A DNA stretch of 47,589 nucleotides, from the IMG/VR virus record IMGVR_UViG_2706794673_000013. The stretch is one strand, 5' to 3'. Of this stretch, positions 1,237-45,300 are shown in pieces (positions within the stretch are counted from its first letter, which is position 1; each line of letters begins with the position of its first letter). A program made the position numbers and the translations under genes. Below the pieces are notes generated by a model. It did no database searches. It was not told the origin of the DNA and was given only the letters and a program-made list of their open reading frames with translations. The DNA is from a virus (Duplodnaviria > Heunggongvirae > Uroviricota > Caudoviricetes).

Positions 1237-1237
1237 A

Positions 1238-7311: not shown

Positions 7312-7321
7312 TTTGCGAATC

Positions 7322-7690: not shown

Positions 7691-7746
7691 GATGGGATAA
7701 AGTGAAGCACAAACCCGGAGGGGGACGCTACCGGATTTATGCTGGT

Positions 7747-8919: not shown

Positions 8920-8931
8920 GCAAAAGTTTCC

Positions 8932-9789: not shown

Positions 9790-9795
9790 CTGACC

Positions 9796-10542: not shown

Positions 10543-10564
10543 TTTTTACCGGGAGGAAATTTTT

Positions 10565-11326: not shown

Positions 11327-11341
11327 TTGCCGGAGGCGCTT

Positions 11342-11758
11342 ATGGCAAAAGTTTTTACACAGGAAGAGCGTGAAAAAATTAAGGAGCAGGTTGTTGAGTT
11401 GGTACGCCAGAGTGGGCGCGAGACGTTAAGGCAACTGGAGGCCAAGACAGGTGCGACAAGATATCTGATGAGCATTCTTGCCAGAGAGTTGGTTGCCAGT
11501 GGCGATGTATACAACTCTGGCTATGGGTTATTCCCGTCTGAACAGGCTCGTAAGGATTGGAAAAACGCCCGCAAAAAACTATCCAGGGCAAAGGTGAAAA
11601 AAACGGTTGTGGTTGATCCTGACCTTATCTGGTCATTACCAGACGGAGAAATACGCCGCTATGACAGGCGTCAGAACATAATCTGTCGCGAGTGCCGGAA
11701 GAGTGAAGTTATGAAACGTGTACTGGCATTTTATCAAGGAAATCTTCGGTATTTATAG
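11342..11758 (+). CDS. Hypothetical protein
   Basis: 138-aa ORF from ATG 11342 (MAKVFTQEEREKIKEQ...) with GGAGG SD; basic C-terminal half with a CxxC pair (CRECRK). Confidence 0.5.
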   Translation: MAKVFTQEEREKIKEQVVELVRQSGRETLRQLEAKTGATRYLMSILARELVASGDVYNSGYGLFPSEQARKDWKNARKKLSRAKVKKTVVVDPDLIWSLPDGEIRRYDRRQNIICRECRKSEVMKRVLAFYQGNLRYL

Positions 11759-11957
11759 ACGTTACTAGATCAAAGAGCATTAGTTCATATGTAAATTGAC
11801 ATTTTTCTGGCACAGGGGAGAGCTAGCGTGGTTGTCCGCTTTGTGCCAATAGCGGACATTGCTGGCTCATGGTATGTTAGTTTAAGGAGGCAGGTTATGC
11901 CCTGTATTTCGCTGTGGTATAATAGTTGCGCAATTGATACAAGGGAGCGTTACATCG

Positions 11958-12919
11958 TGAAAATTGTTTTCGAGGTTAATGGAAAGAAAGTTCCACTAAA
12001 ATCTTTAAAATACATAAGCAAAAAAGATCAACTCGAAGTAATGAAAAACTGGTTCTTTGAAAACTTTGAAGATCCGGCAAATGCTTGTCCGTATGAAAGT
12101 AGAGAAGGTGGCTATGCTTACATATATGGCGGGCCGTATGATGCGAGCGAAGAACTACAATCCATCTTCGGTCAATATGTTAAATCTGAGTATATTGAGG
12201 AATTAGTAGATGAATTACAAACACAATGTTTTGACTGGTCTGGAAACTCAAATAATATAGATGATTGGTACGATGATGATATCTACGACGCTGTAACGTC
12301 TTCCGGTAATCCGTATTTAAAATTCATTGATAATATCGATAAAATAAAAAAACTTGCAAAAGATAAAACTGAACAACAGCAAAAAAACCACTTGCTTAGT
12401 TTGCTCTACACGAATGTTATTACAGCTTTGGAAACGCTTTATGTTGAGCTATTCATTAATTCTATAGAGAAAGATGATGTCTACATAGCCAATTGTATAG
12501 AAAAAGGTAAGACTGAATTTAAAGTAAGCAAAGATATTGCTGCGTTGCCTTTCAAGGGTGAACCCATCGAGAAAATTAGGGGAGAGCTAATCAGGTCAAT
12601 CAAGGAACACTTGATCAGTGCAAGCTGGCATAGCACTAAAAAGGTAATCGACCGCTATGAAGCTACATTCGATATAAAAGTACAAAAAGACTGTCCGATA
12701 GAAGCTATTGAATTGGCAACCCTCAATCGAAATCACTTAGTGCATCGTGGTGGAAAGGATAAAGAAGGGAACCTCGTAGTGATTACAGACCAGGATCTTG
12801 AAACGCTGATTGAAAATGCATCGAACCTGGCAATTATGCTCTACAACAGTTTAAATGTAGCAACGAATAAAACCACCATTTTGCAACCAGATGACAAACC
12901 GTTCATTCATGAATTTTAA
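11958..12919 (+). CDS. Hypothetical protein A of AT-rich cassette (candidate defence/abortive-infection protein)
   Basis: About 320 aa from GTG 11958 preceded by AAGGGAG (alternative ATG at about 12041); visibly AT-rich, K/N/I/D-rich codon usage unlike flanking phage genes; R-x4-H motif (RNHLVH) near C-terminus. Confidence 0.55.
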
Positions 12920-12934
12920 TAGCGCAGGTCATAC

Positions 12935-13936
12935 ATGGATATTCGCACACGAAAGACAAAATTTTTAGAGTCGTTAGATTCAACTGAAGTGATACGCAAA
13001 GCAGTAAGTCTCGCTATAGATTGCATTATTGATAATCATAATAGTAATGAAGATACCCCCTTAGTTATTACCAGCTATGATGATCTCTGTAGAATCCAGG
13101 TGCTAAATTATGTACAGGAGTTTTGCGAAGCTGCATTCCCTGATATGGATGAATATTACTTTAGTCCTAACATACTTCGCATCAACGGCAAGACTAGTGA
13201 AGAAGCTTGTATTAACTTAATTAAACTCTTAAGAAGTACAAAAGGCATGCTATTCTGGTCCGATGCCCCATCGTGGTTCGCTAGCCTCCCCGACGGATTA
13301 TTCCATGTTGTTAACATTGATCAAAAAATCGTTACTCGCGGCCTTAATAAGAAAAACTCTAAGCCGACAATAATCAATAAAGATTACAGTGTAGATACAC
13401 TACTATCAGAGCTATTTTTGAATGGCGCACACATGGAGCAACCCAACGTACACAACGTTTCTGAGGGAAACATGAAGTTCTATGATGAATGCCATGCTGG
13501 ATTAATCAGACCAATACCCGCTCCAATAGGCGCGTCATACGATGAAGAGATCACAATTAATTCTCCAGATTGGCAAAAGCTCGCGTGTGTAGCTTTACGC
13601 CGCTATCAGTCGAAGGAATGTCATGACGGAATGCAATGGGATACAACCGATCATGGTTGGACTGATGTAATCGCGTATCCATTCGTCGAAGAAATACAAT
13701 CAATGGATAATAGTGGTTATCGACAATGTTTAGTTGGGCTGGTCACAATAAACAATTCAAATGCAAATTCTCCGTACCTATCTACCGTTTGGATACATCC
13801 ATTTTATCGCAGGAGAGGGTTATTAAGTAAGTTATGGCCAAAATTACAAGAGTTATATGGAAGTAACTTCGAAATTGAGCGACCTAATGAAAATATGAAA
13901 GCATTTCTGAAAAGTGCGAAACACGCAGATTACTAA
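12935..13936 (+). CDS. Hypothetical protein B of AT-rich cassette (possible GNAT-like C-terminal domain)
   Basis: 333-aa ORF 15 nt downstream of protein A, same strand and same AT-rich composition; C-terminal segment CLVGLVTINN...VWIHPFYRRRGLLSKLW resembles the GNAT acetyl-CoA binding motif. Confidence 0.55.
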   Translation: MDIRTRKTKFLESLDSTEVIRKAVSLAIDCIIDNHNSNEDTPLVITSYDDLCRIQVLNYVQEFCEAAFPDMDEYYFSPNILRINGKTSEEACINLIKLLRSTKGMLFWSDAPSWFASLPDGLFHVVNIDQKIVTRGLNKKNSKPTIINKDYSVDTLLSELFLNGAHMEQPNVHNVSEGNMKFYDECHAGLIRPIPAPIGASYDEEITINSPDWQKLACVALRRYQSKECHDGMQWDTTDHGWTDVIAYPFVEEIQSMDNSGYRQCLVGLVTINNSNANSPYLSTVWIHPFYRRRGLLSKLWPKLQELYGSNFEIERPNENMKAFLKSAKHADY

Positions 13937-14113
13937 TTTATGAATCAGTCTGTGGAGTTAGGGTTGGTGTGAACAAGTAGGGTAAGAGCCTCAACGTGAT
14001 GCTATGCCGACCTGCTCCCTGAGAATTCACACAGAAGGCTGCTAGCAATGTCTGCAGATCGCTCAAAGCGGACTAAAATGTTGGCTTGTTTCTGACTTAG
14101 AGCATTTAAGGAA

Positions 14114-14338
14114 GTGCTGGTGGTGACTGGTTGTTGTGTTCCATTTCTACAGAATAAAATCACAGAAACTATACCCAATAGTTGTATTGAATCACTGACG
14201 AGACAGCCTCATATTTATCAGGACTGGTGTGCGTCTAATACAGGGGGTTGTCGTGCTGGTTCTCAAATGTGCGCTGGCTATTGCGGCTGTAATGGCAATT
14301 TATTGTCTTGCTGTTGTTCTTATGGAGCGGCTTTCTGA
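14114..14338 (+). CDS. Small Cys/Gly-rich ORF (possible peptide; may be non-coding)
   Basis: 74-aa GTG-initiated ORF ending ...CRAGSQMCAGYCGCNGNLLSCCCSYGAAF; poor SD spacing; no family recognised. Confidence 0.2.
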   Translation: MLVVTGCCVPFLQNKITETIPNSCIESLTRQPHIYQDWCASNTGGCRAGSQMCAGYCGCNGNLLSCCCSYGAAF

Positions 14339-14556
14339 TTGATTACATACTGGCTAGAAAAAAGGTGTTACCTTGGTTTATCTTTGTCCGGCAAGGTGCG
14401 CTCATTAATCTTAAGTAAATTTATTGCTCAAGTATTCAGATTACTTCTTATGGTTGAAGTCTCCTGTCAATGTAGAACCAATATATTTACAAAAATGAGA
14501 CCCGTCGGGGATAGCCCTGCCGGGTCTGACTGTTAAAGCATTTTTAATATGATCAT

Positions 14557-14895
14557 CTATTTTTTGGTGCTATAGACTTTTTCGCCCGAAAAGTCTGGAG
14601 CGACCCAAAAGTTAATATTAAACTGAGCATCATCGCTTAGTTCAACACGGTGCCAGTATTGTGGTGGGCTTGTTGCAAAAGCGCCAGCATTAATGACTAC
14701 TTTTATCTCCGGTTCAGTAGCATTCTCATCAGTAAAACCATAATATGTTACAGTGCCTTCCATTACGCACAACTGCCCAAAAACACCTGCTGCTGTATTA
14801 TGATGTGTTAATAACGCTGAAGGTACGTTCTCTTTTGTGAAGAACGGAGTTGAGCGTTTGATTACCCAATCTTTAGGAATTCTCTTGTGTGTCAT
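14557..14895 (-). CDS. YeaR-like DUF1971 protein (tellurite-resistance-associated family)
   Basis: 112-aa product from internal Met with GGAGGAGG SD; RSTPFF...GVFGQLCVMEGTVTYYGF...YWHRVELSDDAQFNINFWVAP resembles E. coli YeaR. Confidence 0.65.
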   Translation of the reverse strand: MTHKRIPKDWVIKRSTPFFTKENVPSALLTHHNTAAGVFGQLCVMEGTVTYYGFTDENATEPEIKVVINAGAFATSPPQYWHRVELSDDAQFNINFWVAPDFSGEKVYSTKK

Positions 14896-15720
14896 AACCA
14901 CCTCCTCCAAAACATGCATTAAAAATGCATCTTTTGGAGGGTTATGTCAAGCTGTTATGAAACACATAATTGATATGTTGATTAGAGGAGAAGATAGAAT
15001 AAATATGGTTGTTTTTCGTATAACTATTTGTTTTACTTTTAGTTTATGCATTCTGTGTGTTNNNNNNNNNNNNNNNNNNNNNNNNNNNNNNNNNNNNNNN
15101 NNNNNNNNNNNNNNNNNNNNNNNNNNNNNNNNNNNNNNNNNNNNNNNNNNNNNNNNNNNNNNNNNNNNNNNNNNNNNNNNNNNNNNNNNNNNNNNNNNNN
15201 NNNNNNNNNNNNNNNNNNNNNNNNNNNNNNNNNNNNNNNNNNNNNNNNNNNNNNNNNNNNNNNNNNNNNNNNNNNNNNNNNNNNNNNNNNNNNNNNNNNN
15301 NNNNNNNNNNNNNNNNNGAAATATGATTCCAGCAACTTATCATGTGGCTACTTTATAAAAATAATGCCCATATAAAACAACAAGCGAAAAGGATTACGGA
15401 TAAAAAAGGAGCGAGATGTGCGAACTTGTTATTTTCCATGTTTAACCACCTTAAATAATTGATGATGACGGGATGATNNNNNNNNNNNNNNNNNNNNNNN
15501 NNNNNNNNNNNNNNNNNNNNNNNNNNNNNNNNNNNNNNNNNNNNNNNNNNNNNNNNNNNNNNNNNNNNNNNNNNNNNNNNNNNNNNNNNNNNNNNNNNNN
15601 NNNNNNNNNNNNNNNNNNNNNNNNNNNNNNNNNNNNNNNNNNNNNNNNNNNNNNNNNNNNNNNNNNNNNNNNNNNNNNNNNNNNNNNNNNNNNNNNNNNN
15701 NNNNNNNNNNNNNNNNNNNN

Positions 15721-29215: not shown

Positions 29216-29977
29216 ATGAAACTGAAAACGGTCGAGATTAACGGAAAACAATACGCAGAAATTGATACTGCTGGCCTGCCAGTTTATGTGCACGACGATG
29301 GTAAAGAAATTGGCTTCGATGCACCGCTGGCGACAAAAAAAATTACAGAGCTTAATGGCGAGGCAAAAAATCATCGCCTGGCTAAAGAAGCTGCAGAGGA
29401 NNNNNNNNNNNNNNNNNNNNNNNNNNNNNNNNNNNNNNNNNNNNNNNNNNNNNNNNNNNNNNNNNNNNNNNNNNNNNNNNNNNNNNNNNNNNNNNNNNNN
29501 NNNNNNNNNNNNNNNNNNNNNNNNNNNNNNNNNNNNNNNNNNNNNNNNNNNNNNNNNNNNNNNNNNNNNNNNNNNNNNNNNNNNNNNNNNNNNNNNNNNN
29601 NNNNNNNNNNNNNNNNNNNNNNNNNNNNNNNNNNNNNNNNNNNNNNNNNNATCCCGGCAGATTTATTACAAGCCCGCTTCGGGCAGGCATTCAAAGTGGA
29701 AGAAGGGAGGATCGTTGCTTATGACGCTTCCGGCAACAAAATTTATTCCCGCGCGAAGCCTGGCGAACTGGCGCAGTTTGATGAGGCGCTGGAGTTCCTT
29801 GTCGAAAATTACCCTCAGAAAGACTACATCCTGAAAGCCAGTGGCAACAATGGCGGCGGCTCCCGTCCGACACAGCATGATATTGGTCAGAAAACGATGA
29901 AACGCTCTGCTTTTGATGCACTGGATGTTGCAGGTAAGCAAAACGCATTGAAAGACGGTATCACAATCGTTGATTAA
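29216..29977 (+). CDS. Putative head scaffolding protein (interrupted by N run 29401-29650)
   Basis: ORF from ATG 29216 (MKLKTVEINGKQYAEID...) located between head morphogenesis and capsid genes; middle part masked so frame continuity is unverified. Confidence 0.45.
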   Translation: MKLKTVEINGKQYAEIDTAGLPVYVHDDGKEIGFDAPLATKKITELNGEAKNHRLAKEAAEXXXXXXXXXXXXXXXXXXXXXXXXXXXXXXXXXXXXXXXXXXXXXXXXXXXXXXXXXXXXXXXXXXXXXXXXXXXXXXXXXXXXIPADLLQARFGQAFKVEEGRIVAYDASGNKIYSRAKPGELAQFDEALEFLVENYPQKDYILKASGNNGGGSRPTQHDIGQKTMKRSAFDALDVAGKQNALKDGITIVD

Positions 29978-32597: not shown

Positions 32598-33088
32598 AGT
32601 TTACTGAAATCAGAAATACGGTTATTTCCAGAATGACGGCACAGACGATTATTGATGGAAAAGACGTATTGTATCCGAACGGGCCAACGTTCGATCCTTC
32701 CGGTAAGTTAATCTGGGCGCGGTTAAGTANNNNNNNNNNNNNNNNNNNNNNNNNNNNNNNNNNNNNNNNNNNNNNNNNNNNNNNNNNNNNNNNNNNNNNN
32801 NNNNNNNNNNNNNNNNNNNNNNNNNNNNNNNNNNNNNNNNNNNNNNNNNNNNNNNNNNNNNNNNNNNNNNNNNNNNNNNNNNNNNNNNNNNNNNNNNNNN
32901 NNNNNNNNNNNNNNNNNNNNNNNNNNNNNNNNNNNNNNNNNNNNNNNNNNNNNNNNNNNNNNNNNNNNNNNNNNNNNNNNNNNNNNNNNNNNNNNNNNNN
33001 NNNNNNNNNNNNNNNNNNNNNNNNNNNNNNNNNNNNNNNNNNNNNNNNNNNNNNNNNATCGCGCGCTCTAGCGCAATTAATGACATAG
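32594..33088 (+). CDS. Putative tail terminator/tail component (interrupted by N run 32730-33057)
   Basis: ORF beginning MKFTEIRNTVISRMTAQTIIDGKDVLYPNGPTFDPSGKLIWARLS then masked; boundaries uncertain. Confidence 0.3.
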   Translation: MKFTEIRNTVISRMTAQTIIDGKDVLYPNGPTFDPSGKLIWARLSXXXXXXXXXXXXXXXXXXXXXXXXXXXXXXXXXXXXXXXXXXXXXXXXXXXXXXXXXXXXXXXXXXXXXXXXXXXXXXXXXXXXXXXXXXXXXXXXXXXXXXXXXXXXXXSRALAQLMT

Positions 33089-33097
33089 GAGGCTCCT

Positions 33098-33526
33098 GTG
33101 AGTTCAGGTGCAAAGGTTATCTCGGCATTTATCCGGGAGACGGTTGCAGGCACTACGCCAGCAAGTGGTGACTGGAGTTTATTAAAACGCACAAGCTGGG
33201 GAGTAAAACCCNNNNNNNNNNNNNNNNNNNNNNNNNNNNNNNNNNNNNNNNNNNNNNNNNNNNNNNNNNNNNNNNNNNNNNNNNNNNNNNNNNNNNNNNN
33301 NNNNNNNNNNNNNNNNNNNNNNNNNNNNNNNNNNNNNNNNNNNNNNNNNNNNNNNNNNNNNNNNNNNNNNNNNNNNNNNNNNNNNNNNNNNNNNNNNNNN
33401 NNNNNNNNNNNNNNNNNNNNNNNNNNNNNNNNNNNNNNNNNNNNNNNNNNNNNNNNNNNNNNNNNNNNNNNNNNNNNNNNNNNNNNNNGGAGCGCAGGTT
33501 GGCTCATGGAAAATGCAGATCCCTAA
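33098..33526 (+). CDS. Putative tail structural protein (interrupted by N run 33212-33488)
   Basis: ORF beginning MSSGAKVISAFIRETVAGTTPASGDWSLLKRTSWGVKP then masked; boundaries uncertain. Confidence 0.3.
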   Translation: MSSGAKVISAFIRETVAGTTPASGDWSLLKRTSWGVKPXXXXXXXXXXXXXXXXXXXXXXXXXXXXXXXXXXXXXXXXXXXXXXXXXXXXXXXXXXXXXXXXXXXXXXXXXXXXXXXXXXXXXXXXXXXXXSAGWLMENADP

Positions 33527-34142: not shown

Positions 34143-34604
34143 ATGAGGTTATGGATGTTTATTCTTAATCAGAAAATTATCATTGGTGGAGAACGCTGGT
34201 TTACGCCAATGAAGGACTTAAAACCTGTAGACGGGTTAAAACTGTTGGTGGCAAGCAGCGATAACGATCAGTATCGCTCCCGTAATGCATTAATCCGTCG
34301 CCACATTGAGAAAATGGATGCCAGTTTGCACGTCGGAACGAAGGAGTTTGATATTTCAAAGGTTTCCGAGGTGGATTCTGTTGATGATTTACTCATTGAT
34401 AATGCCGCTCGTTATCTGCTGAAAGACTGGAAAGGGGTTGGTGAACTGGTTAATGGTGTTGAGGTTGCACTGGAATATACGGCAGAACGAGGGATCGCGC
34501 TGCTTAAGCAGAATCCAGAGTTGTACTGGCAGATCCTTGCAGAAGCAGCCAGCATCGCCCAGGGTAAAGAGCAGCAGAAGCAGGATACGATAAAAAAGCC
34601 ATAG
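34143..34604 (+). CDS. Tail assembly chaperone (lambda G-like)
   Basis: 153-aa ORF just upstream of tape measure gene; ends ...DTIKKP with slippery heptamer A_AAA_AAG two codons before its stop; alternative start at 34155. Confidence 0.65.
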   Translation: MRLWMFILNQKIIIGGERWFTPMKDLKPVDGLKLLVASSDNDQYRSRNALIRRHIEKMDASLHVGTKEFDISKVSEVDSVDDLLIDNAARYLLKDWKGVGELVNGVEVALEYTAERGIALLKQNPELYWQILAEAASIAQGKEQQKQDTIKKP

Positions 34605-34912
34605 CTGCCCAGCGGTGGTTATCGGAGTTCGGGGGAGAAAGGGGGGAAAAGGCAAGATGGAAGCGAGAAAAACTCAGGTTGCCACCGATACCGGAACCAG
34701 AAATAGACCCGGTGCTTAAGGAGTTGTTGTACGCCTATTCGGTAATATCCCGTGCCCGACGTTATGCTGGAATGGCTGGGGTGCCTTTGCCTTTATCTCT
34801 GACAGAGATAAATGAATATTTAGCCACTCATCCGGTATTGATTGAGCGCGATGAATTTGAAGCAGTGATCTTTGCACTGGATGACCAGTATTTTCAGGAG
34901 CAGTGTGTGTAG
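34143..34912 (+). CDS. Tail assembly chaperone frameshift product (GT-like) via -1 shift at A_AAA_AAG
   Basis: The -1 frame is open from the slippery site through to the stop at 34910-34912 (manual translation ...DTIKK|KAIAAQRWLSEFGGERGEKARWKREKLRLPPIPEPE...QCV). Confidence 0.5.
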
Positions 34913-35077: not shown

Positions 35078-38000
35078 ATGGCAGAGCAAACCTCGCGTCT
35101 CGCAATAATTATTGATAGCACTGGAGCGAAAAATAATGCTGACAATCTGACCTCCTCATTAGTCAAAATGACGCAGGCTGGGGAAACTGCTGCAAATAGC
35201 GCAGGGAAAGTGACTAAGGCAACAGAAGATGAGAAGAACGCGCTCGCAAAATTAAAAGCAGCTATTGATCCAGTTGGTGCCGCAATTGATACTGTCGGTC
35301 GACGCTATTCTGAATTAAAGAAATTTTTCGATAAAGGGCTTATTGATAAAGAAGAATATGAATTTCTTGTCCGTAAACTTAATGAAACCACAGAGGAATT
35401 GAGCGGGGTTGCGCAAGCGCAGAGAGAAGCCGAGAAGGCCGGAAAACTTGCTGCCGCCCAGCAGGAAGCGCAGGCTCAGGCCTTTCAAAGAATGCTGGAC
35501 AAGATCGACCCTCTGGCTGCGGCGCTAAGAAATCTTGAACAACAGCATGATGAACTTAATGCTGCGTTTGCATCCGGGAAAATAAATGGTTCTCAGTTTG
35601 AGAATTATAGCCGAAAAATACAGGAAACACGGCGAGAGCTTACCGGAGAGGCTCAGGCAGAGCGAGAAGCAGCAAAAGCGCATGATGAACAGGTTGTTGC
35701 TTTGCAACGTCTGATTGCTCAACTTGATCCTGTCGGAACTGCTTTTAATCGTCTGGTAGAACAACAGAAACAGCTCAATGAAGCAAAAGCTAAGGGGATG
35801 CTTTCTCCTGAAATGTATGAGGAGCTTTCTGGAAAACTTCGTGCTATGCGGAGTGAGCTTGAGGTTACTCAATCACAATTAAGCAAAACCGGAATGTCGG
35901 CAAAACAAACGGCTTTTGCTATGCGCATGTTGCCTGTACAAATGACGGATATTGTTGTTGGGTTGTCCACTGGTCAGTCGCCATTTATGGTGTTAATGCA
36001 GCAGGGCGGCCAGCTAAAAGATATGTTCGGTGGGATTGGCCCGGCGATCAAAGGTGTAGGTTCTTATGTGCTGGGATTAATTAATCCTTTTACCCTGGCC
36101 GCAGCAGCCGTTGGGGTCTTAGGACTGGCTTACTATAAAGGCTCTCAGGAGCAGGACGAATTTAATAAATCTCTTATTCTTACCGGAAATCAGTTGGGGA
36201 CAACCAGCGGGCAATTGGGCGATATAGCTCAACGTGCCGGGAATGCGGCTGATTCGACAACTGGTGCTGCGGCGGCAGTATTAAATCAGCTTGTGCGTTC
36301 GGGAAAGGTAGCGAGCAGTTCGCTGGAGCAAGTGACGACAGCGATAGTAAAAACGAGCGAAGTAACAGGAATATCAACCGAACAACTGGTTAATGACTTC
36401 AATGAAATTGCAAAGGATCCTGTCAGTGCCATATCAAAACTTAATGATCAGTACCATTTTCTGACACTTGCGACTTATAACCAGATTAAGGCGCTACAGG
36501 ATGAAGGGAACCAGCAGGAGGCCGCCCGCATTGCGACAGAAGAATACTCATCCTCAATGATCCAGCGCACCAACCAGATTAAAGAAAATCTTGGTTATCT
36601 TGAGACTGCATGGAAAGCTGTCGCAGACTCCGCAAAATGGGCATGGGATTCCATGCTGGATATTGGCCGTGAGGCCTCCCTTGATCAAAAAATCTNNNNN
36701 NNNNNNNNNNNNNNNNNNNNNNNNNNNNNNNNNNNNNNNNNNNNNNNNNNNNNNNNNNNNNNNNNNNNNNNNNNNNNNNNNNNNNNNNNNNNNNNNNNNN
36801 NNNNNNNNNNNNNNNNNNNNNNNNNNNNNNNNNNNNNNNNNNNNNNNNNNNNNNNNNNNNNNNNNNNNNNNNNNNNNNNNNNNNNNNNNNNNNNNNNNNN
36901 NNNNNNNNNNNNNNNNNNNNNNNNNNNNNNNNNNNNNNNNNNNNNCCGGGAGCAGCAGAGAGCTAGTGAACTTGCAAAACTGGAAAAGCTAAAGAATCAG
37001 TATTCAAAGGAAGAATATAATAATCTTATCGCTCAAATAAATGAGCGTTATAAAGATCCAAAGCAACCAAAGGCGAAAGGTTATTCTGATGATGCAGCCC
37101 AACGAATGATTGATCATCTGAATCAACAGAATGCGTTACTAAGTTCACAAGCTGAGTTGACCGTTAAATTAAGTTCCTCTGAACAGGAACTGGTTAAGTG
37201 GCGTCAGCGGATTGCCGACCTAGAGTCACGACCATCATCGAAATTAACCCAGGATCAGAAATCGCTTCTCTTACACCGGGAAGAAATAACCACGTTGATG
37301 GAGAAAAATGTTGCGATTGAAAAAAATAACAGGCTAATCAAGGAATCCGCCGAAATAACAGCATGGCGTGATTCATTGCAGGCTTCGATTGATAATCGTC
37401 AGCAGGGGTATGATATTCAGATTGCTGGTTATGGGGTTGGCGATAAAAATCAGCAACGCCAGCAGGAATTACTGCGGATTGAACATGGATATAACAATCA
37501 GCGTCTGCAACTTGAACGTGACTATGCAGATAAATCCCGTGGAATGTCAGATCATGTTTTTCAAGAGAAAATGCAGGCTCTGAATGATGCTCTGGAACGG
37601 GAAAAAGAAATTGTCAGACAGAAAAACGAGCAGCTCGATATTCAGGCAGGAGACTGGGTTAGTGGTGCCTCCCAGGGATTCAATAACTGGCTGGATGACA
37701 CTAAGGATATCAGTGAGCAGATAAAATCAACCACGACTCAGATGTTTGATGGGATGACCGATGCGCTGGGTGATTTTGTCACGACAGGCAAGGCAAATTT
37801 TCGTTCTTTCGCTACTTCCGTGATTTCGGATCTTAGTCGAATAGCATTAAAGGCTTCAATTACTGGGATTTTCGACAGCATTAGTAACAGTTCTTCTGGG
37901 GGGATTTTAGGAACTATCGGGAGTGCTATTAGTAAATTTATTCCGAATGCAAAGGGCGGTGTTTATGAGTCTCCGTCATTGAGCACGTATTCGAACGGTA

Positions 38001-38311
38001 TTTATGATTCCCCGCAATTTTTTGCTTTTGCAAAAGGGGCTGGTGTTTTTGGTGAGGCTGGACCGGAAGCCATTATGCCATTAACACGAACTTCCGATGG
38101 TTCTCTTGGTGTCAGAGCTATTAATAGTAAAAGTGGTAATGGAGGCGGAGATATTACCTATGCCCCTGTATACCAAATCACTATTCAAAATGACGGCCAG
38201 AATGGAGAGATTGGCCCTCAGGCAATAAAAGCACTTATGGGGATGGTTGATCAGCGGGTGCAGGGCAATCTGTTAAATATGCGACGTGATGGGGGAATGT
38301 TAAGTGGCTAA
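35078..38311 (+). CDS. Tail tape measure protein (interrupted by N run 36696-36945)
   Basis: 1077-aa ORF (by track) with long coiled-coil-rich N-terminal half; SD AGGAG; C-terminus ...[40 protein letters not shown]. Confidence 0.85.
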
Positions 38312-38642
38312 TACGGAAGAATTTCACTGGTTACCAGAGGATGGAATGAAAACAGAAAATAAACCATCGATAAAAACTGTAAGATTTGGTGATGGTTATG
38401 AGCAACGAAGTCCAAATGGACTTAATCATTCTCTGCGCGTTTTCACCTGTGATTTCAAAGTTGAGGCGAATGAACGTGATTCATTTGAAAAATTTTTAGC
38501 CCGGCATGAAGGCTATAAATCTTTTTTTTGGCGCCCGCCGGGTATTAACAGAAAAATCAGAGTGGTGTGTCGAACGTGGTCAGCGACAGAACATATCACC
38601 TATACCGATTTTTCGTGTCAGTTTGACGAAGTGGTGATCTGA
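38304..38642 (+). CDS. Minor tail protein M-like (divergent copy)
   Basis: 112-aa ORF with M-family signature (VRFGDGYEQRSPNGLN ... FWRPP ... DFSCQFDEVV) but low identity to the second M copy at 39721. Confidence 0.6.
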   Translation: MANTEEFHWLPEDGMKTENKPSIKTVRFGDGYEQRSPNGLNHSLRVFTCDFKVEANERDSFEKFLARHEGYKSFFWRPPGINRKIRVVCRTWSATEHITYTDFSCQFDEVVI

Positions 38643-39227
38643 TGCAGGACATACAACAGGAAACGCTGAATGAATGCATTCGTGCGGAGCAGTCGGCCAG
38701 CGTGGTGCTCTGGGAAATCGACCTGACCGAGGTAGGCGGGGATCGCTACTTTTTCTGCAATGAGCAGAACGAGAAAGGAGAGTCTGTCACCTGGCAGAGT
38801 CGGCAGTATCAGGCCTATCCCATTCAGGGGAGTGGATTTGAGATGAACGGCAAAGGTGCCAGTGCAAGGCCAACGCTGAAAGTCTCTAATCTGCACGGCA
38901 TGGTCACCGGGATGGCGGAAGACCTGCAGAGTCTGGTCGGCGGAACGGTGGTCAGGCGTAAGGTTTACGCCCGTTTTCTGGATGCGGTGAACTTCGTCAA
39001 CGGAAACAGTGACGCCGATCCGGAGCAGGAGGTGATCAGCCGCTGGCGTATTGAGCAGTGCAGCGAACTGAGCGCGGTCAGTGCCTCCTTTGTACTGTCC
39101 ACGCCGACGGAAACGGACGGCGCTGTTTTTCCGGGGCGCATCATGCTTGCTAATACCTGCACCTGGACCTATCGCGGTGATGAGTGCGGTTATCACGGTC
39201 CGGCTGTCGCGGATGAATATGACCAGC
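38642..39227 (+). CDS. Minor tail protein L-like (first copy; C-terminus lost in N run 39228-39495)
   Basis: Visible 195 aa are about 95% identical to the L gene at 40050-40748; DNA near-identical over 38940-39227 vs 40340-40627. Confidence 0.6.
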
Positions 39228-39495
39228 NNNNNNNNNNNNNNNNNNNNNNNNNNNNNNNNNNNNNNNNNNNNNNNNNNNNNNNNNNNNNNNNNNNNNNNNN
39301 NNNNNNNNNNNNNNNNNNNNNNNNNNNNNNNNNNNNNNNNNNNNNNNNNNNNNNNNNNNNNNNNNNNNNNNNNNNNNNNNNNNNNNNNNNNNNNNNNNNN
39401 NNNNNNNNNNNNNNNNNNNNNNNNNNNNNNNNNNNNNNNNNNNNNNNNNNNNNNNNNNNNNNNNNNNNNNNNNNNNNNNNNNNNNNNNNNNNNNN

Positions 39496-39724
39496 TGCGG
39501 AAGGTGGTTATGTGGGCGGTGCCGGAAGTCCGGCGCAGATGCGGCGGGCTGAAGGCATTAATTTTAATCAGAACAATCACGTGGTGATTCAGAACGACGG
39601 TACGAATGGTCTGCCAGGTCCACAGATGATGAAGGCCGTGTATGACATGGCCCGCAAGGGTGCCCGTGATGAAATTCAGACACAGATGCGTGATGGTGGC
39701 CTGTTCTCCGGAGGTGGACGATGA
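39496..39724 (+). other. Fragment encoding a tape-measure (H-like) C-terminal end
   Basis: Post-gap translation AEGGYVGGAGSPAQMRRAEGINFNQNNHVVIQNDGTNGLPGPQMMKAVYDMARKGARDEIQTQMRDGGLFSGGGR parallels the C-terminus of the tape measure ORF at 35078-38311. Confidence 0.4.
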
Positions 39725-40050
39725 AAACCTTCCGCTGGAAAGTGAAACCCGGTATGGATGTGGCTTCGGCCCCTTCTGTAAGAAAGGTGCGCTTTGGTGA
39801 TGGCTATTCCCAGCGAGCGCCTGCCGGGCTGAATGCCAACCTGAAAACGTACAGCGTGACGCTTTCTGTCCCCCGTGAGGAGGCCATGGTACTGGAGTCG
39901 TTTCTGGAAGAGCACGGGGGCTGGAAAGCCTTTCTGTGGACGCCGCCTTATGAGTGGCGGCAGATAAAGGTGACCTGCGCAAAATGGTCGTCGCGGGTCA
40001 GTATGCTGCGTGTTGAGTTCAGCGCAGAGTTTGAACAGGTGGTGAACTGA
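39721..40050 (+). CDS. M: Minor tail protein M (lambda-like)
   Basis: 109-aa ORF MKTFRWKVKPGMDVASAPSVRKVRFGDGYSQRAPAGLNANLKTYSVTLSVPREEA..., near-identical to lambda gpM as recalled. Confidence 0.9.
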   Translation: MKTFRWKVKPGMDVASAPSVRKVRFGDGYSQRAPAGLNANLKTYSVTLSVPREEAMVLESFLEEHGGWKAFLWTPPYEWRQIKVTCAKWSSRVSMLRVEFSAEFEQVVN

Positions 40051-40748
40051 TGCAGGATATCCGGCAGGAAACACTGAATGAATGCACCCGTGCGGAGCAG
40101 TCGGCCAGCGTGGTGCTCTGGGAAATCGATCTGACAGAGGTCGGTGGAGAACGTTATTTTTTCTGTAATGAGCAGAACGAAAAAGGTGAGCCGGTCACCT
40201 GGCAGGGGCGACAGTATCAGCCGTATCCCATTCAGGGGAGTGGTTTTGAACTGAATGGCAAAGGCACCAGTACGCGCCCCACGCTGATGGTTTCTAACCT
40301 GTACGGTATGGTCACCGGGATGGCGGAAGATCTACAGAGTCTGGTCGGCGGAACGGTGGTCCGGCGTAAGGTTTACGCCCGTTTTCTGGATGCGGTGAAC
40401 TTCGTCAACGGAAACAGTGACGCCGATCCGGAGCAGGAGGTGATCAGCCGCTGGCGCATTGAGCAGTGCAGCGAACTGAGCGCGGTGAGTGCCTCTTTTG
40501 TACTGTCCACGCCGACGGAAACAGATGGCGCTGTTTTTCCGGGACGTATCATGCTGGCCAACACCTGCACCTGGACCTATCGCGGCGATGAGTGCGGTTA
40601 TCACGGTCCGGCGGTCGCGGATGAATATGACCAGCCAACGTCCGACATCACGAAGGATAAATGCAGCAAATGCCTGAGTGGCTGTAAGTTTCGCAATAAC
40701 GTCGGCAACTTTGGCGGCTTCCTTTCCATTAACAAACTTTCGCAGTAA
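40050..40748 (+). CDS. L: Minor tail protein L (lambda-like)
   Basis: 232-aa ORF MQDIRQETLNECTRAEQSASVVLWEIDLTEVGGERYFFCNEQNEKGEPVTWQGRQYQPYPIQGSGFELNGKG..., near-identical to lambda gpL; C-terminal Cys cluster. Confidence 0.9.
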   Translation: MQDIRQETLNECTRAEQSASVVLWEIDLTEVGGERYFFCNEQNEKGEPVTWQGRQYQPYPIQGSGFELNGKGTSTRPTLMVSNLYGMVTGMAEDLQSLVGGTVVRRKVYARFLDAVNFVNGNSDADPEQEVISRWRIEQCSELSAVSASFVLSTPTETDGAVFPGRIMLANTCTWTYRGDECGYHGPAVADEYDQPTSDITKDKCSKCLSGCKFRNNVGNFGGFLSINKLSQ

Positions 40749-40753
40749 ATCCC

Positions 40754-41790
40754 ATGACACAGACAGAATCAGCGATTCTGGCGCACGCCCGGCGATGTGC
40801 GCCAGCGGAGTCGTGCGGCTTCGTGGTGAGAACACCGGAGGGGGAAAGATATTTTCCCTGCGTGAATATTTCCGGTGAGCCGGAGGAGTATTTCCGGATG
40901 GCTCCGGAGGACTGGCTGCAGGCAGAGATGCAGGGTGAGATTGTGGCGCTGGTCCACAGCCACCCCGGTGGTCTGCCCTGGCTGAGTGAGGCCGACCGGC
41001 GGCTGCAGGTGCAGAGTGATTTGCCGTGGTGGCTGGTCTGCCGGGGGGCGATTCACAAGTTCCGCTGTGTGCCACATCTTACCGGGCGGCGCTTTGAGCA
41101 CGGGGTGACGGACTGTTACACGCTGTTCCGGGATGCTTACCATCTGGCGGGGATTGAGATGCCGGATTTTCATCGTGAGGATGACTGGTGGCGTCACGGT
41201 CANNNNNNNNNNNNNNNNNNNNNNNNNNNNNNNNNNNNNNNNNNNNNNNNNNNNNNNNNNNNNNNNNNNNNNNNNNNNNNNNNNNNNNNNNNNNNNNNNN
41301 NNNNNNNNNNNNNNNNNNNNNNNNNNNNNNNNNNNNNNNNNNNNNNNNNNNNNNNNNNNNNNNNNNNNNNNNNNNNNNNNNNNNNNNNNNNNNNNNNNNN
41401 NNNNNNNNNNNNNNNNNNNNNNNNNNNNNNNNNNNNNNNNNNNNNNNNNNNNTGCCAGATTTTCATCGTGAGGACGACTGGTGGCGTAATGGTCAGAATC
41501 TCTATCTGGATAATCTGGAGGCTACAGGGCTGTATCAGGTGCCGTTGTCAACGGCGCAGCCGGGCGATGTGCTGCTGTGCTGTTTTGGTTCATCGGTGCC
41601 GAATCATGCCGCCATTTACTGTGGTGACGGCGAGCTGCTGCACCATATTCCTGAACAACTGAGCAAACGAGAGAGGTATACCGACAAATGGCAGCGACGC
41701 ACACACTCCCTCTGGCGTCACCGGGCATGGCACGCATCTGCCTTTACGGGGATTTGCAGCGATTTGGCCGCCGCATCGACCTTCGTGTGA
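40754..41790 (+). CDS. K: Tail assembly protein K (lambda-like; interrupted by N run 41203-41452 with flanking duplicate sequence)
   Basis: MTQTESAILAHARRCAPAESCGFVV... matches lambda gpK; the peptide PDFHREDDWWR(H/N)G is encoded on both sides of the N run, indicating a duplicated or unresolved join. Confidence 0.75.
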
Positions 41791-42335
41791 AAACGGGGGC
41801 CGAAGCCATCCGGGCACTGGCCACACAGCTCCCGGCATTTCGTCAGAAACTGAGCGACGGCTGGTATCAGGTGCGCATTGCCGGGCGTGATGCAGGCGAA
41901 AATGAATTATCTGCCCGTCTTAATGAACCGCTGGCAAATGGTGCCGTGATCCACATCGTTCCGCGTCTGGCGGGTGCCAAAAGTGGCGGTGTGTTTCAGG
42001 CGGTGCTGGGTGCGGCGCTGATTGCGGTGGCATGGTGGAACCCTGTGGGCTGGCTGGGGGCCGCGGCTGTATCGGGTATGTATGCAGCAGGGGCCAGTAT
42101 GATCCTGGGTGGTGTGGCGCAGATGCTGGCACCGAAAGCCAGGACGCCCACGGCAGCCAGTACAGATAACGGCAAACAGAACACGTATTTCTCGTCACTG
42201 GATAACATGGTTGCCCAGGGTAATGTTCTGCCTGTTCTGTACGGGGAAATGCGCGTGGGGTCACGTGTGGTTTCTCAGGAGATCAGCACGGCAGACGAAG
42301 GGGATGGTGGTCAGGTTGTGGTGATTGGTCGCTGA
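41688..42335 (+). CDS. I: Tail assembly protein I (lambda-like)
   Basis: 215-aa ORF MAATHTLPLASPGMARICLYGDLQRFGRRIDLRVKTGAEAIRALATQLPAF..., overlapping end of K as in lambda. Confidence 0.85.
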   Translation: MAATHTLPLASPGMARICLYGDLQRFGRRIDLRVKTGAEAIRALATQLPAFRQKLSDGWYQVRIAGRDAGENELSARLNEPLANGAVIHIVPRLAGAKSGGVFQAVLGAALIAVAWWNPVGWLGAAAVSGMYAAGASMILGGVAQMLAPKARTPTAASTDNGKQNTYFSSLDNMVAQGNVLPVLYGEMRVGSRVVSQEISTADEGDGGQVVVIGR

Positions 42336-42395
42336 TGCAAAATGTTTTATGAGAAACCGCCTGCGGGCGGTTTTGTCGTTTATGGAGCGTGAGGA

Positions 42396-45300
42396 ATGGG
42401 TAAAGGCAGCAGTAAGGGGCATACCCCGCGCGNNNNNNNNNNNNNNNNNNNNNNNNNNNNNNNNNNNNNNNNNNNNNNNNNNNNNNNNNNNNNNNNNNNN
42501 NNNNNNNNNNNNNNNNNNNNNNNNNNNNNNNNNNNNNNNNNNNNNNNNNNNNNNNNNNNNNNNNNNNNNNNNNNNNNNNNNNNNNNNNNNNNNNNNNNNN
42601 NNNNNNNNNNNNNNNNNNNNNNNNNNNNNNNNNNNNNNNNNNNNNNNNNNNNNNNNNNNNNNNNNNNNNNNNNNNNNNNNNNNNNNNNNGGAAAAAGACA
42701 TCACCATTAAGGGCAAAACCACCTCGCAGTATCTGGTCTCGGTGGTGGTGGATAACCTGCCTCCGCGCCCGTTCAGTATCCGGATGCGCAGGATGACACC
42801 GGACAGCACCACAGACCAGCTGCAGAACAAAACGCTCTGGTCGTCATACACCGAAATCATCGATGTGAAACAGTGCTACCCGAACACTGCACTGGTCGGC
42901 GTACAGGTGGACTCGGAGCAGTTCGGCAGCCAGCAGGTGAGTCGTAATTATCATCTTCGCGGGCGCATTCTGCAGGTGCCGTCGAACTATAACCCGCAGA
43001 CGCGACAATACAGCGGTATCTGGGACGGAACGTTAAAACCAGCATACAGCAACAACATGGCCTGGTGTCTGTGGGATATGCTGACCCACCCGCGCTACGG
43101 CATGGGGAAACGTCTTGGTGCGGCGGATGTGGACAAATGGGCGCTGTATGTCATCGGCCAGTACTGCGACCNNNNNNNNNNNNNNNNNNNNNNNNNNNNN
43201 NNNNNNNNNNNNNNNNNNNNNNNNNNNNNNNNNNNNNNNNNNNNNNNNNNNNNNNNNNNNNNNNNNNNNNNNNNNNNNNNNNNNNNNNNNNNNNNNNNNN
43301 NNNNNNNNNNNNNNNNNNNNNNNNNNNNNNNNNNNNNNNNNNNNNNNNNNNNNNNNNNNNNNNNNNNNNNNNNNNNNNNNNNNNNNNNNNNNNNNNNNNN
43401 NNNNNNNNNNNNNNNNNNNNNGCCGTTGAGGTGAACTGGATTGACCCGGATAACGGCTGGGAGACGGCGACAGAGCTTGTGGAGGATACGCAGGCCATTG
43501 CCCGTTACGGTCGTAACGTCACGAAGATGGATGCTTTTGGCTGTACCAGCCGGGGGCAGGCACACCGCGCCGGGCTGTNNNNNNNNNNNNNNNNNNNNNN
43601 NNNNNNNNNNNNNNNNNNNNNNNNNNNNNNNNNNNNNNNNNNNNNNNNNNNNNNNNNNNNNNNNNNNNNNNNNNNNNNNNNNNNNNNNNNNNNNNNNNNN
43701 NNNNNNNNNNNNNNNNNNNNNNNNNNNNNNNNNNNNNNNNNNNNNNNNNNNNNNNNNNNNNNNNNNNNNNNNNNNNNNNNNNNNNNNNNNNNNNNNNNNN
43801 NNNNNNNNNNNNNNNNNNNNNNNNNNNNGAGCCGTGTTCCTGACGGCGTTGCTGAATACAGCGTGTGGGGGCTGAAGCTGCCGACGTTGCGCCAGCGCCT
43901 GTTCCGCTGTGNNNNNNNNNNNNNNNNNNNNNNNNNNNNNNNNNNNNNNNNNNNNNNNNNNNNNNNNNNNNNNNNNNNNNNNNNNNNNNNNNNNNNNNNN
44001 NNNNNNNNNNNNNNNNNNNNNNNNNNNNNNNNNNNNNNNNNNNNNNNNNNNNNNNNNNNNNNNNNNNNNNNNNNNNNNNNNNNNNNNNNNNNNNNNNNNN
44101 NNNNNNNNNNNNNNNNNNNNNNNNNNNNNNNNNNNNNNNNNNNNNNNNNNNNNNNNNNNNNNNNNNNNNNNNNNNNNNNNNNNNNNNNNNNNNNNNNNNN
44201 NNNNNNNNNNNNNNNNNNNNNNNNNNNNNNNNNNNNNNNNNNNNNNNNNNNNNNNNNNNNNNNNNNNNNTTGACCCGGATAACGGCTGGGAGACGGCGAC
44301 AGAGCTTGTGGAGGATACGCAGGCCATTGTCCGTTACGGTCGTAACGTCACGAAGATGGATGCCTTTGGCTGTACCAGCCGGGGGCAGGCACACCGCGCC
44401 GGGCTGTGGCTGATTAAAACGGAACTGCTGGAGACGNNNNNNNNNNNNNNNNNNNNNNNNNNNNNNNNNNNNNNNNNNNNNNNNNNNNNNNNNNNNNNNN
44501 NNNNNNNNNNNNNNNNNNNNNNNNNNNNNNNNNNNNNNNNNNNNNNNNNNNNNNNNNNNNNNNNNNNNNNNNNNNNNNNNNNNNNNNNNNNNNNNNNNNN
44601 NNNNNNNNNNNNNNNNNNNNNNNNNNNNNNNNNNNNNNNNNNNNNNNNNNNNNNNNNNNNNNNNNNNNNNNNNNNNNNNNNNNNNNGTAAAAGTGAGCCG
44701 TGTTCCTGACGGTGTTGCTGAATACAGCGTGTGGGGGCTGAAGCTGCCGACGCTGCACCAGCGATTGTTCCGCTGCGTGAGTATCCGTGAGAACGACGAC
44801 GGCACGTATGCCATCACCGCCGTGCAGCATGTGCCGGAAAAAGAAGCCATCGTGGATAACGGGGCGCACTTTGACGGCGACCAGAGCGGCACGGTGAATG
44901 GTGTCACGCCGCCAGCGGTGCAGCACCTGACTGCCGAAGTCACCGCAGACAGCGGGGAATATCAGGTGCTGGCGCGCTGGGACACGCCGAAGGTGGTGAA
45001 GGGGGTGAGCTTTATGCTTCGCCTGACCGTGGCAGCGGATGACGGCAGTGAGCGGCTGGTCAGCACGGCCCGGACGACGGAAACCACATACCGCTTCACG
45101 CAACTGGCGCTGGGACGGTACACGCTGACAGTCCGGGCGGTAAATGCCTGGGGACAGCAGGGCGATCCGGCGTCGGTATCGTTCAGGATTGCCGCACCGG
45201 TAGCACCGTCGCGGATTGAGCTGACGCCGGGCTATTTTCAGATAACTGCCACGCCGCATCTTGCGGTTTATGATCCGACGGTACAGTTTGAGTTCTGGTT

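What the first reader, a model, noticed from the sequence alone, without database searches (positions are those of the whole stretch)
38304..41790. Apparent tandem duplication of the tail-tip module (M-like, L-like, tape-measure C-terminus, then M, L, K) with N runs at the junctions
After the tape measure gene comes a divergent M-like gene and an L gene copy whose visible 195 codons are about 95% identical to the downstream L, then an N run, then sequence encoding a second tape-measure-like C-terminus, then lambda-like M, L and K. In K, the peptide PDFHREDDWWR(H/N)G is encoded on both sides of the N run at 41203-41452. This is either genuine mosaic duplication from tail-module exchange, or two related prophage tail regions collapsed into one scaffold.
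Basis: seen in the sequence. Interest (0 to 1): 0.5.

Follow-up and report, generated by a model that had tools for sequence, protein, structure and literature searches.

The report
False tail-gene duplication from scaffolding
The apparent doubling of phage tail-tip genes is most likely a draft-assembly error, in which a 1.7-kb piece of a second, related prophage was slotted into a gap of a Rac-type E. coli prophage that in finished genomes has one ordinary set of these genes.

Summary
In detail: the sequence reads H_A–M_A–L_A(1-585) | N268 | H_B last 229 nt–M_B–L_B–K(1-449) | N250 | K(407-744)–I–J.

The duplication itself is almost certainly a scaffolding artefact.
- The two flanks (36946-39227 and 41453-42432) are 100% and 99.2-99.6% identical to one Rac-type prophage in finished E. 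coli genomes. There they lie only 524 nt apart, with a single M-L-K set.
- The middle piece (39496-41202) matches a different, lambda-type prophage. In strain NCTC9082 that prophage is 220 kb away on the other strand.
- None of 5,426 finished E. coli genomes has M_A-L next to H_B'-M_B.
- Among 123 related loci, a doubled L occurs only in scaffolds containing N (6 of 7 with N, 0 of 116 without).
- N-run lengths disagree with the true distances and break reading frames, so they are padded gaps.
- The same allelic doubling recurs in J.
- The interloper carries a 332-nt stretch identical to the Rac-type K. That would give read pairs a false link.

One thing here is genuine and already known: an old mosaic joint at the M/L boundary (~38620).

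Interest is low.

The parts
35078..38311 (+). Tape measure gene H_A of the Rac-type prophage. It is read through the N run 36696-36945, which here happens to equal the reference distance of 250 nt.
   Evidence: Pfam TMP_4 and Tape_meas_lam_C. 99.9-100% identical to finished genomes E7, NCTC9082 and NCTC10444.
38304..38642 (+). M_A, the divergent M-type minor tail protein of the Rac-type prophage (41% GC).
   Evidence: Phage_min_tail, E = 1e-31. 41% aa identity to M_B. 100% identical to WP_000024051-encoding loci in finished genomes.
38620..38642 (+). Genuine old mosaic joint. Nucleotide similarity between the Rac-type and lambda-type prophages begins here, 22 nt before the L start codon. GC content rises from 41-45% to 55-61%.
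   Evidence: The BLAST alignment of piece 1 to prophage B starts at query position 1675, which is window 38620. GC values. 707 finished genomes cover at least 80% of piece 1.
38642..39227 (+). L_A, the first 586 nt of the Rac-type prophage's own L gene. The contig ends here.
   Evidence: Phage_tail_L. 100% identical to E7, NCTC9082 and NCTC10444.
39228..39495 (.). Scaffold gap (268 N). It hides the join between the Rac-type contig and the interloper contig.
   Evidence: N-run lengths in this window do not track the true distances.
39496..41202 (+). Interloper contig from a lambda-type prophage B: the last 229 nt of H_B, then M_B (39721-40050), L_B (40050-40748) and K codons 1-149 (40754-41202).
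   Evidence: 98.8% identical to a separate prophage in NCTC9082 (L002), 220 kb from the Rac-type prophage and on the other strand. 99.3% identical to IMG/VR lambda-type contigs. Only 93.6% identical to the Rac-type prophage over L-K.
40692..41023 (+). A 332-nt stretch inside the interloper that is identical to the Rac-type prophage's L 3' end and K 5' end. It is the probable source of the false read-pair links. All 12 mismatches to the closest lambda-type contigs lie in 40760-40948.
   Evidence: Mismatch maps. Each flank junction also exists in N-free contigs. No contig or genome carries the whole piece at 100%.
41203..41452 (.). Scaffold gap (250 N) between two contig ends that overlap by 43 nt (39/43 identical). 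The K reading frame is not preserved across it.
   Evidence: ORF frames.
41453..42432 (+). Continuation of the Rac-type prophage: K from nt 407 to the stop (41790), I (41688-42335), and the start of J.
   Evidence: 99.6% identical to NCTC9082 and 99.2% to NCTC10444. In both, this segment begins 524 nt after the end of piece 1 in the same prophage. NLPC_P60 and Lambda_tail_I.
43422..44769 (+). A second false doubling, inside J. Islands 43422-43578 and 43829-43911 are repeated as allelic versions at 44270-44436 and 44687-44769, separated by N runs.
   Evidence: Both members of each pair map to the same J coordinates in finished genomes. The overlaps are 136/138 and 77/83 identical.

Best explanation
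The window is a draft scaffold of a full-length Rac-type lambdoid prophage of E. coli. It starts at intR, next to ttcA.

The real tail-tip region is a single, ordinary set: H_A-M_A-L-K-I-J. The apparent tandem duplication is a false duplication made during assembly and scaffolding.

The proposed mechanism has three steps.
1. The host genome also carries at least one lambda-type prophage whose L-K-I-J genes are 90-100% identical to those of the Rac-type prophage in patches.
2. The assembler broke the contigs in this patchwork. A 1,707-nt contig was built mostly from the lambda-type copy (H_B 3' end, M_B, L_B, K 5' part). It contains a 332-nt stretch identical to the Rac-type L 3'/K 5' sequence.
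3. Read pairs from the Rac-type flanks therefore link to this contig. The scaffolder placed it in the 524-nt hole between L_A nt 586 and K nt 407, and padded both joins with about 250 N.

The same process put two allelic sets of short J contigs in series further on.

What is shown:
- the origin of each piece;
- the 524-nt true spacing of the flanks;
- the absence of the arrangement from finished genomes;
- the unfaithful gap lengths;
- the recurrence of the same doubling in other scaffolds.

What is inferred:
- the read-pair mechanism;
- that prophage B lies in the same genome, rather than in a contaminating strain.
For: 1. Flanks. Piece 1 (36946-39227) is 100% identical to E7, NCTC9082 and NCTC10444. 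Segment 41453-42432 is 99.6% identical to NCTC9082 and 99.2% to NCTC10444, in the same prophage. In all three genomes the two segments are exactly 524 nt apart, with one M, one L and one K. In the window they are 2,225 nt apart.

2. Middle piece. Its best matches are lambda-type prophages with G, T, H, M, L, K. In NCTC9082 that prophage sits at 2.373 Mb on the + strand, whereas the Rac-type prophage sits at 2.596 Mb on the - strand. Finished genomes have a median of 3 and up to 15 places matching this piece, so co-resident paralogues are normal.

3. Arrangement test. I used a concatenated query of M_A + L 5' part + H_B 3' end + M_B. Of 5,426 finished genomes, 0 have a place covering at least 80% of it. 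The maximum was 74%, which is the ordinary H_B-M_B-L order.

4. Doubling and N go together. Of 123 related loci, 6 have two L hits, and all 6 contain N. In the four inspected in detail (L037, L104, L074, L123), an L copy ends or begins within a few nucleotides of an N. None of the 116 N-free loci has two L hits (Fisher p = 1.6e-9). GenBank ON470602.1 shows H-M-L | N | H'-M-L | N | L 3' part with different breakpoints.

5. N-run lengths differ from the reference distances: 328 against 243, 277 against 243, 257 against 409, 250 against 263, 289 and 252. Seven of ten differ by a non-multiple of 3. The K parts are out of frame with each other.

6. The contig ends at the K gap overlap by 43 nt with 4 mismatches. 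This is the 'duplicated overlapping contig' signature (PMC2864568).

7. The same doubling occurs in J.

8. The 332-nt patch identical to the Rac-type prophage lies inside the interloper.

9. All four junctions that a real structure would need lie under N runs. N runs make up 7.3% of the window, so the chance expectation is about 3e-5.
Against: - The reads are not available, so no junction can be inspected directly, and depth and mate-pair consistency are untested.
- The source record was not found, so the assembler and the meaning of its N runs are unknown.
- Some N runs lie in single-copy sequence. Repeats therefore do not explain every gap in this scaffold, and the regular 242-253 nt size of the missing reference stretches is unexplained.
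- The arrangement test only detects copies joined within about 1.1 kb.
- Two databases contain similar doubled arrangements. A sceptic could read that as recurrence of a real structure. Against this, breakpoints differ among the scaffolds I mapped, and each of those scaffolds has N at or beside an L copy.
Confidence: 0.93

Rival explanations
1. Genuine structural variant. A 1.7-kb H_B'-M_B-L_B-K' cassette from a lambda-type prophage was inserted between L and K of the Rac-type prophage by illegitimate or unequal recombination. This would give a real partial tandem duplication of the tail-tip module, with a disrupted K.
For: The order of the pieces in the window is collinear and on one strand. 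Lambdoid prophages recombine often. The M_A|L joint and the A-type patch in K show that real exchange happens in this region. Similar doubled arrangements exist in ON470602.1 and in several IMG/VR scaffolds.
Against: - 0 of 5,426 finished genomes show the arrangement.
- Every doubled L in other records occurs in a scaffold containing N, and none of 116 N-free loci has one.
- Breakpoints differ among the scaffolds mapped (L123, L104, L037, L025, L074).
- At least two novel junctions here, plus two more in J, would all have to be hidden exactly under N runs (about 3e-5 by chance).
- K would be interrupted and out of frame.
- The flanks are 524 nt apart in three finished genomes with 99-100% identical sequence.
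Confidence: 0.03
2. Mixed sample rather than paralogues. The interloper and the second J alleles come from a second E. coli strain, or from free phage DNA, in the sequenced material, not from a second prophage in the same chromosome. The result is still a false duplication.
For: Some gaps fall in sequence that is single-copy in finished genomes. Strain heterogeneity could explain these better than intragenomic repeats. No finished genome or contig carries piece 2 at 100%.
Against: Co-resident lambda-type prophages are the rule in genomes carrying this Rac-type prophage: 3-4 L-matching places in E7, NCTC9082 and NCTC10444. No second strain is therefore needed. The non-N segments of the Rac-type backbone up to and including L_A are 99.95-100% identical to single finished genomes, with no sign of mixed consensus.
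Confidence: 0.1
3. The N runs are deliberate in-place masks over a contiguous underlying record, so the duplication exists as uninterrupted sequence in the source.
For: Six or seven N runs are exactly 250 long. Six missing reference stretches are 242-253 nt. One gap (36696-36945) equals the reference distance exactly and keeps the tape measure ORF in frame.
Against: Other N runs differ from the reference distance by +85, +34, -152, -13, -39 and -2 nt, although their flanks are 96-100% identical to the finished reference genomes. Seven of ten differences are not multiples of 3, which would frameshift the tail terminator, tail tube and J genes. Even if the source were contiguous, the comparative evidence against a real duplication would stand.
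Confidence: 0.05

Closest known systems
False duplications in draft assemblies: the 'duplicated overlapping contigs' and 'duplicated contained contigs' of Kelley & Salzberg 2010 (PMC2864568). See also Ko et al. 2022 (PMC9516828).
   Same: Two diverged copies of one region are built as separate contigs. Both are linked by read pairs to the same surroundings and are placed next to each other in a scaffold. The contig ends overlap at the gap (43 nt, 39/43 identical), and the copies differ by SNPs.
   Different: Those papers concern haplotypes of diploid genomes. Here the two copies are most likely paralogous prophages in one haploid bacterial genome. The mate-pair test used in that work could not be run here.
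Assembly difficulty caused by co-resident lambdoid prophages in E. coli (for example Yin et al. 2015, PMC4587872).
   Same: High similarity among lambdoid prophages breaks and confuses short-read assemblies of the prophage regions.
   Different: That work concerns stx-converting phages of O157:H7. Here it is a Rac-type prophage paired with a lambda-type prophage, and the specific result is a doubled tail-tip module.
Phage lambda tail-tip module H-M-L-K-I-J.
   Same: The gene order and Pfam families match: Phage_min_tail, Phage_tail_L, Prok-JAB + NLPC_P60, Lambda_tail_I. Piece 2 is 95-96.5% identical to phages mEp332, 21 and 2B8.
   Different: The resident prophage has a non-lambda, AT-rich H and M joined to lambda-type L-K-I-J at about 38620. 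Its head genes are P22-coat-like.
Rac prophage of E. coli K-12.
   Same: It has intR next to ttcA, along with recE, recT, ralR, kilR, sieB, ydaSTUV, trkG, stfR and tfaR.
   Different: Here the prophage is full length, about 47 kb, with complete head and tail genes. From general knowledge, the K-12 copy is a roughly 23-kb remnant.

Membership tests
False duplication by scaffolding (duplicated overlapping or contained contigs) | The duplicated copies are bounded by assembly gaps. | tested here: met
   N runs at 39228-39495 and 41203-41452 bound the extra piece. The J doublets are bounded by N runs as well.
False duplication by scaffolding (duplicated overlapping or contained contigs) | Adjacent contig ends align to each other at or near their ends. 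| tested here: met
   41160-41202 against 41453-41495: 43 nt running exactly to both contig ends, 39/43 identical. None of the other 12 gaps shows this.
False duplication by scaffolding (duplicated overlapping or contained contigs) | The arrangement is absent from independently finished assemblies of the same locus. | tested here: met
   Three finished genomes with 99-100% identical flanks have a single M-L-K and a 524-nt spacing. 0 of 5,426 genomes show the doubled order.
False duplication by scaffolding (duplicated overlapping or contained contigs) | Read depth and mate-pair distances are inconsistent with two copies. | not testable with these tools
   No reads are available and the source record was not found.
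Genuine tandem duplication or insertion | A readable novel junction joins the end of one copy to the start of the next. | tested here: not met
   Both junctions, and those in J, are N runs. No junction sequence exists in the window.
Genuine tandem duplication or insertion | The same junctions are present in independent contiguous sequences. | tested here: not met
   0 of 5,426 finished genomes. 0 of 116 N-free related loci have two L copies. Scaffolds that do have different breakpoints.
Lambda-type tail-tip module (M, L, K, I) | Pfam families Phage_min_tail, Phage_tail_L, Prok-JAB + NLPC_P60 and Lambda_tail_I, in that order after a tape measure gene. | tested here: met
   All hits are above their gathering scores. 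Finished genomes are annotated the same way.
Rac-type prophage | Integrated at ttcA with intR/xisR, and carrying recET, ralR, kilR, sieB, ydaSTUV and trkG. | tested here: met
   Window 1-15061 is 99.95-100% identical to loci annotated with these genes. Window position 1 coincides with the end of intR, next to ttcA, in NCTC10444.

The most novel reading that the evidence does not exclude
The scaffold could be correct. In that case this Rac-type prophage would carry a real inserted H'-M-L-K' cassette from a lambda-type prophage, giving two different M genes and two 94%-identical L genes in tandem. That could be an intermediate caught in the act of tail-tip module exchange.
Probability: 0.03. Interest if true: 0.3.

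Novelty: not a real feature. Interest (0 to 1): 0.05.

Why it matters
The main value is as a caution.
- Automated annotation of this scaffold would report two M genes, two L genes, an orphan tape-measure fragment and a split K. A survey of prophage gene content or 'tail-module duplication' would count these as biology.
- The same doubling is present in a deposited GenBank phage record (ON470602.1) and in several IMG/VR proviruses. The artefact therefore recurs wherever E. coli drafts with several lambdoid prophages are scaffolded.
- The biology underneath is an ordinary Rac-type prophage with a lambda-type tail tip and an old mosaic joint at the M/L boundary. This is already represented in hundreds of finished genomes.

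Tried and rejected
- Finding the source record. A pattern spanning the N run found nothing in genome contigs. An 89-nt piece-2 pattern found only an unrelated E. coli draft there. It also found 117 IMG/VR contigs, none identical to the window. The source stays unknown.
- Explaining all N runs by intragenomic repeats. This was rejected for the tail terminator and tail tube gaps. Both the missing 243-nt stretch and the 154-nt island are single-copy in about 730 finished genomes. GC content of the missing stretches is unremarkable. The cause of those gaps is unexplained.
- In-place masking of a contiguous record. This was rejected because N lengths differ from the reference distances by non-multiples of 3 in seven of ten cases.
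- Deciding whether piece 2 is an assembly chimera or a natural mosaic. Its B-to-A and A-to-B junctions each occur in N-free IMG/VR contigs (40 and 3 contigs). No contig or finished genome carries the whole 1,707 nt at 100%. This is unresolved, and it does not affect the main conclusion.
- A tandem-prophage (polylysogen) reading. This was rejected because the extra piece is only 1.7 kb. It starts inside a tape measure gene, and both its sides are contiguous parts of one prophage.
Full report
**What is in the sequence**

The window has 13 runs of N, 243-358 long. The region in question contains these features:
- the end of a 1,077-codon tape measure gene, H_A, up to 38311;
- M_A, 38304-38642;
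- L_A, from 38642 up to a contig end at 39227 (195 codons);
- 268 N;
- the last 229 nt of a second tape measure gene, H_B (39496-39724);
- M_B, 39721-40050;
- L_B, 40050-40748;
- K codons 1-149 (40754-41202);
- 250 N;
- K from nt 407 to its stop (41453-41790);
- then I and J.

Pfam confirms the gene identities: Phage_min_tail for both M genes, Phage_tail_L for both L genes, Prok-JAB for the K 5' part, NLPC_P60 for the K 3' part, Lambda_tail_I for I, and Tape_meas_lam_C and TMP_4 for H_A.

The two M proteins are 41% identical. The two L copies are 184/195 aa and 90.3% nt identical. PDFHREDDWWR(H/N)G is encoded on both sides of the K gap, in 43 nt that match at 39 positions.

**Where each piece comes from**

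Piece 1 (36946-39227) is 100% identical to at least eight finished E. coli chromosomes. I fetched the locus from three of them: E7, NCTC9082 and NCTC10444. All three show H-M-L-K-I-J-lom-stfR-tfaR, with one copy of each gene.

The segment after the K gap (41453-42432) is 99.6% identical to NCTC9082 and 99.2% to NCTC10444, in the same prophage. In all three genomes it begins exactly 524 nt after the end of piece 1. In the window the two are 2,225 nt apart.

The piece between them (39496-41202) is only 93.6% identical to that prophage over L-K. Its best matches (98.7-99.3%) are lambda-type prophages with G, T, H, M, L, K, I, J. It is also 95-96.5% identical to phages mEp332, 21 and 2B8.

In NCTC9082 the two prophages are 220 kb apart and on opposite strands. 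Finished genomes have a median of three and up to fifteen places matching this piece, so co-resident paralogues are the norm.

The whole window is a full-length Rac-type prophage. Positions 1-15061 are 99.95-100% identical to loci with intR, xisR, ralR, recT, recE, racC, kilR, sieB and ydaSTUV. The window starts exactly at the end of intR, next to ttcA.

**Is the doubled order ever real?**

I built a 1,194-nt query from M_A + the first 300 nt of L_A + the H_B 3' end + M_B. An ordinary Rac-type locus can cover 54% of it and an ordinary lambda-type locus about 72-74%. Only the doubled order can cover more than 80%.

Of 5,426 finished E. coli genomes, 4,311 had a match and none reached 80%. The best was 74%, which is the ordinary H_B-M_B-L order.

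I then examined 123 related loci: 117 IMG/VR contigs, four stretches of finished genomes, one draft and one GenBank phage record. Six have two L hits, and all six contain N. In the four inspected in detail (L037, L104, L074, L123), an L copy ends or begins within a few nucleotides of an N. None of the 116 N-free loci has two L hits (Fisher p = 1.6e-9).

One of the six is GenBank ON470602.1 (phage vB_EcoS-885R8, partial genome). It is annotated with H three times, M twice and L twice. It reads H-M-L(1-411) | N | ... | N | H'-M-L(1-596) | N | L(417-699)-K. The L gene of the resident prophage resumes after the inserted piece there.

IMG/VR contig L104 reads L(1-536) | N | H_B'-M_B-L_B(1-644) | N | L(475-699). 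Its middle piece is 100% identical to the first 1,198 nt of piece 2.

Breakpoints differ among the scaffolds I mapped in detail (L123, L104, L037, L025, L074). That fits repeated graph-resolution errors and does not fit a shared rearrangement.

**Nature of the N runs**

I compared N-run lengths with distances in NCTC10444; the flanks of the gaps upstream of L are 99.95-100% identical to it, those in J 96-99%. The pairs (N length / reference distance) are 256/245, 243/242, 250/253, 328/243, 277/243, 250/250, 257/409, 250/263, 250/289 and 250/252. Seven of the ten differences are not multiples of three. Taken literally, those lengths would frameshift the tail terminator, tail tube and J genes.

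The two K parts are also out of frame with each other. The N runs are therefore padded or estimated gaps, not length-faithful masks.

The K gap is the only one of the thirteen whose flanks overlap. This is the 'duplicated overlapping contig' signature described for false duplications (PMC2864568).

**The same thing happens in J**

Islands 43422-43578 and 44270-44436 map to the same J coordinates (136/138 identical). So do 43829-43911 and 44687-44769 (77/83 identical). Two allelic series of short contigs have been laid end to end.

A real structure would need at least four novel junctions, and all of them would have to lie under N runs. N runs occupy 7.3% of the window, so the chance expectation is about 3e-5.

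**Why the scaffolder put the piece there (inferred)**

Against the closest lambda-type contigs, piece 2 has no mismatch in 39496-40759 or in 40949-41202. All twelve mismatches fall in 40760-40948. Against the Rac-type prophage it has no mismatch in 40692-41023.

The contig thus carries a 332-nt stretch identical to exactly the part of the Rac-type prophage that is missing from the scaffold, namely the L 3' end and K 5' end. Read pairs from both Rac-type flanks would have mates there.

I could not decide whether this patch is a natural gene-conversion tract or a path switch in the assembly graph. Each of its junctions exists in N-free contigs (40 and 3 contigs), but no contig or finished genome carries the whole piece at 100%.

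**What is genuine**

Nucleotide similarity between the Rac-type and lambda-type prophages begins at 38620, 22 nt before the L start codon. GC content is 41-45% in H_A and M_A, against 55-61% from L onward.

This is an old mosaic joint. It links a non-lambda tape measure and M to a lambda-type L-K-I-J, and it is present with single-copy genes in 707 finished genomes. It is ordinary lambdoid mosaicism.

**Open points**

- The source record and its assembler are unknown.
- Several gaps lie in sequence that is single-copy in finished genomes. The missing stretches there are a suspiciously regular 242-253 nt with unremarkable composition. I have no explanation for this. It leaves some room for a mixed sample, or for an unusual assembly procedure.
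- Neither possibility rescues the duplication.

**Verdict**

The duplication is an assembly artefact, with confidence about 0.93. The biology underneath is a known kind of prophage with one tail-tip module. Difficulty in assembling co-resident lambdoid prophages is documented (PMC4587872), as are false duplications in scaffolds (PMC2864568; PMC9516828).

Noticed in passing
window 43422-44769: J contains a second false doubling. Two short islands (157 and 83 nt) are repeated as allelic versions after N runs, at 136/138 and 77/83 identity.
   Followed up: yes
window 32730-33057 and 33212-33488; also 15062-15317, 15478-15720, 29401-29650, 36696-36945: These N runs lie in sequence that is single-copy in about 730 finished genomes (tested for the tail terminator and tail tube pair). 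The reference stretches they replace are a regular 242-253 nt, while the N lengths differ (328 and 277 against 243). Repeats do not explain these gaps, and their cause is unknown.
   Followed up: partly
L123 (GenBank ON470602.1, phage vB_EcoS-885R8) 7697-10020; IMG/VR L104 7663-9883; L037 7731-9274; L025, L074, L102: Public records carry the same doubled L (some with H'-M-L), and all contain N runs. The GenBank record is annotated with two L genes, two M genes and three tape-measure pieces. These look like the same scaffolding artefact deposited as phage or provirus sequence.
   Followed up: partly
window 38620-38642: A genuine mosaic joint at the M/L gene boundary. Upstream are an AT-rich, non-lambda tape measure and M (41-45% GC). 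Downstream is lambda-type L-K-I-J (55-61% GC). It is conserved in 707 finished genomes.
   Followed up: partly
window 40760-40948: A 189-nt tract with 12 Rac-type SNPs sits inside an otherwise lambda-type contig. It is either a gene-conversion tract between co-resident prophages or an assembly path switch. No database sequence carries the whole contig at 100%.
   Followed up: partly
window 1-47589 as a whole: The window is a full-length (~47 kb) Rac-type prophage, cut exactly at the end of intR next to ttcA. It has recET, ralR, kilR and sieB, and trkG lies between the lysis and terminase genes. It also has a P22-like coat gene. ydaY plus a small ORF (34143-34912) sit where tail assembly chaperones usually lie, between the tail tube and tape measure genes.
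   Followed up: partly
window 41453-42432 compared with L001 (E7) and L003 (NCTC9082): K 3' part, I and J 5' part are 99.6% identical to the NCTC9082 Rac-type prophage but only 91.4% to the E7 one, although both are 100% identical to the window over H-M-L. This is natural mosaic variation among Rac-type prophages downstream of K.
   Followed up: no
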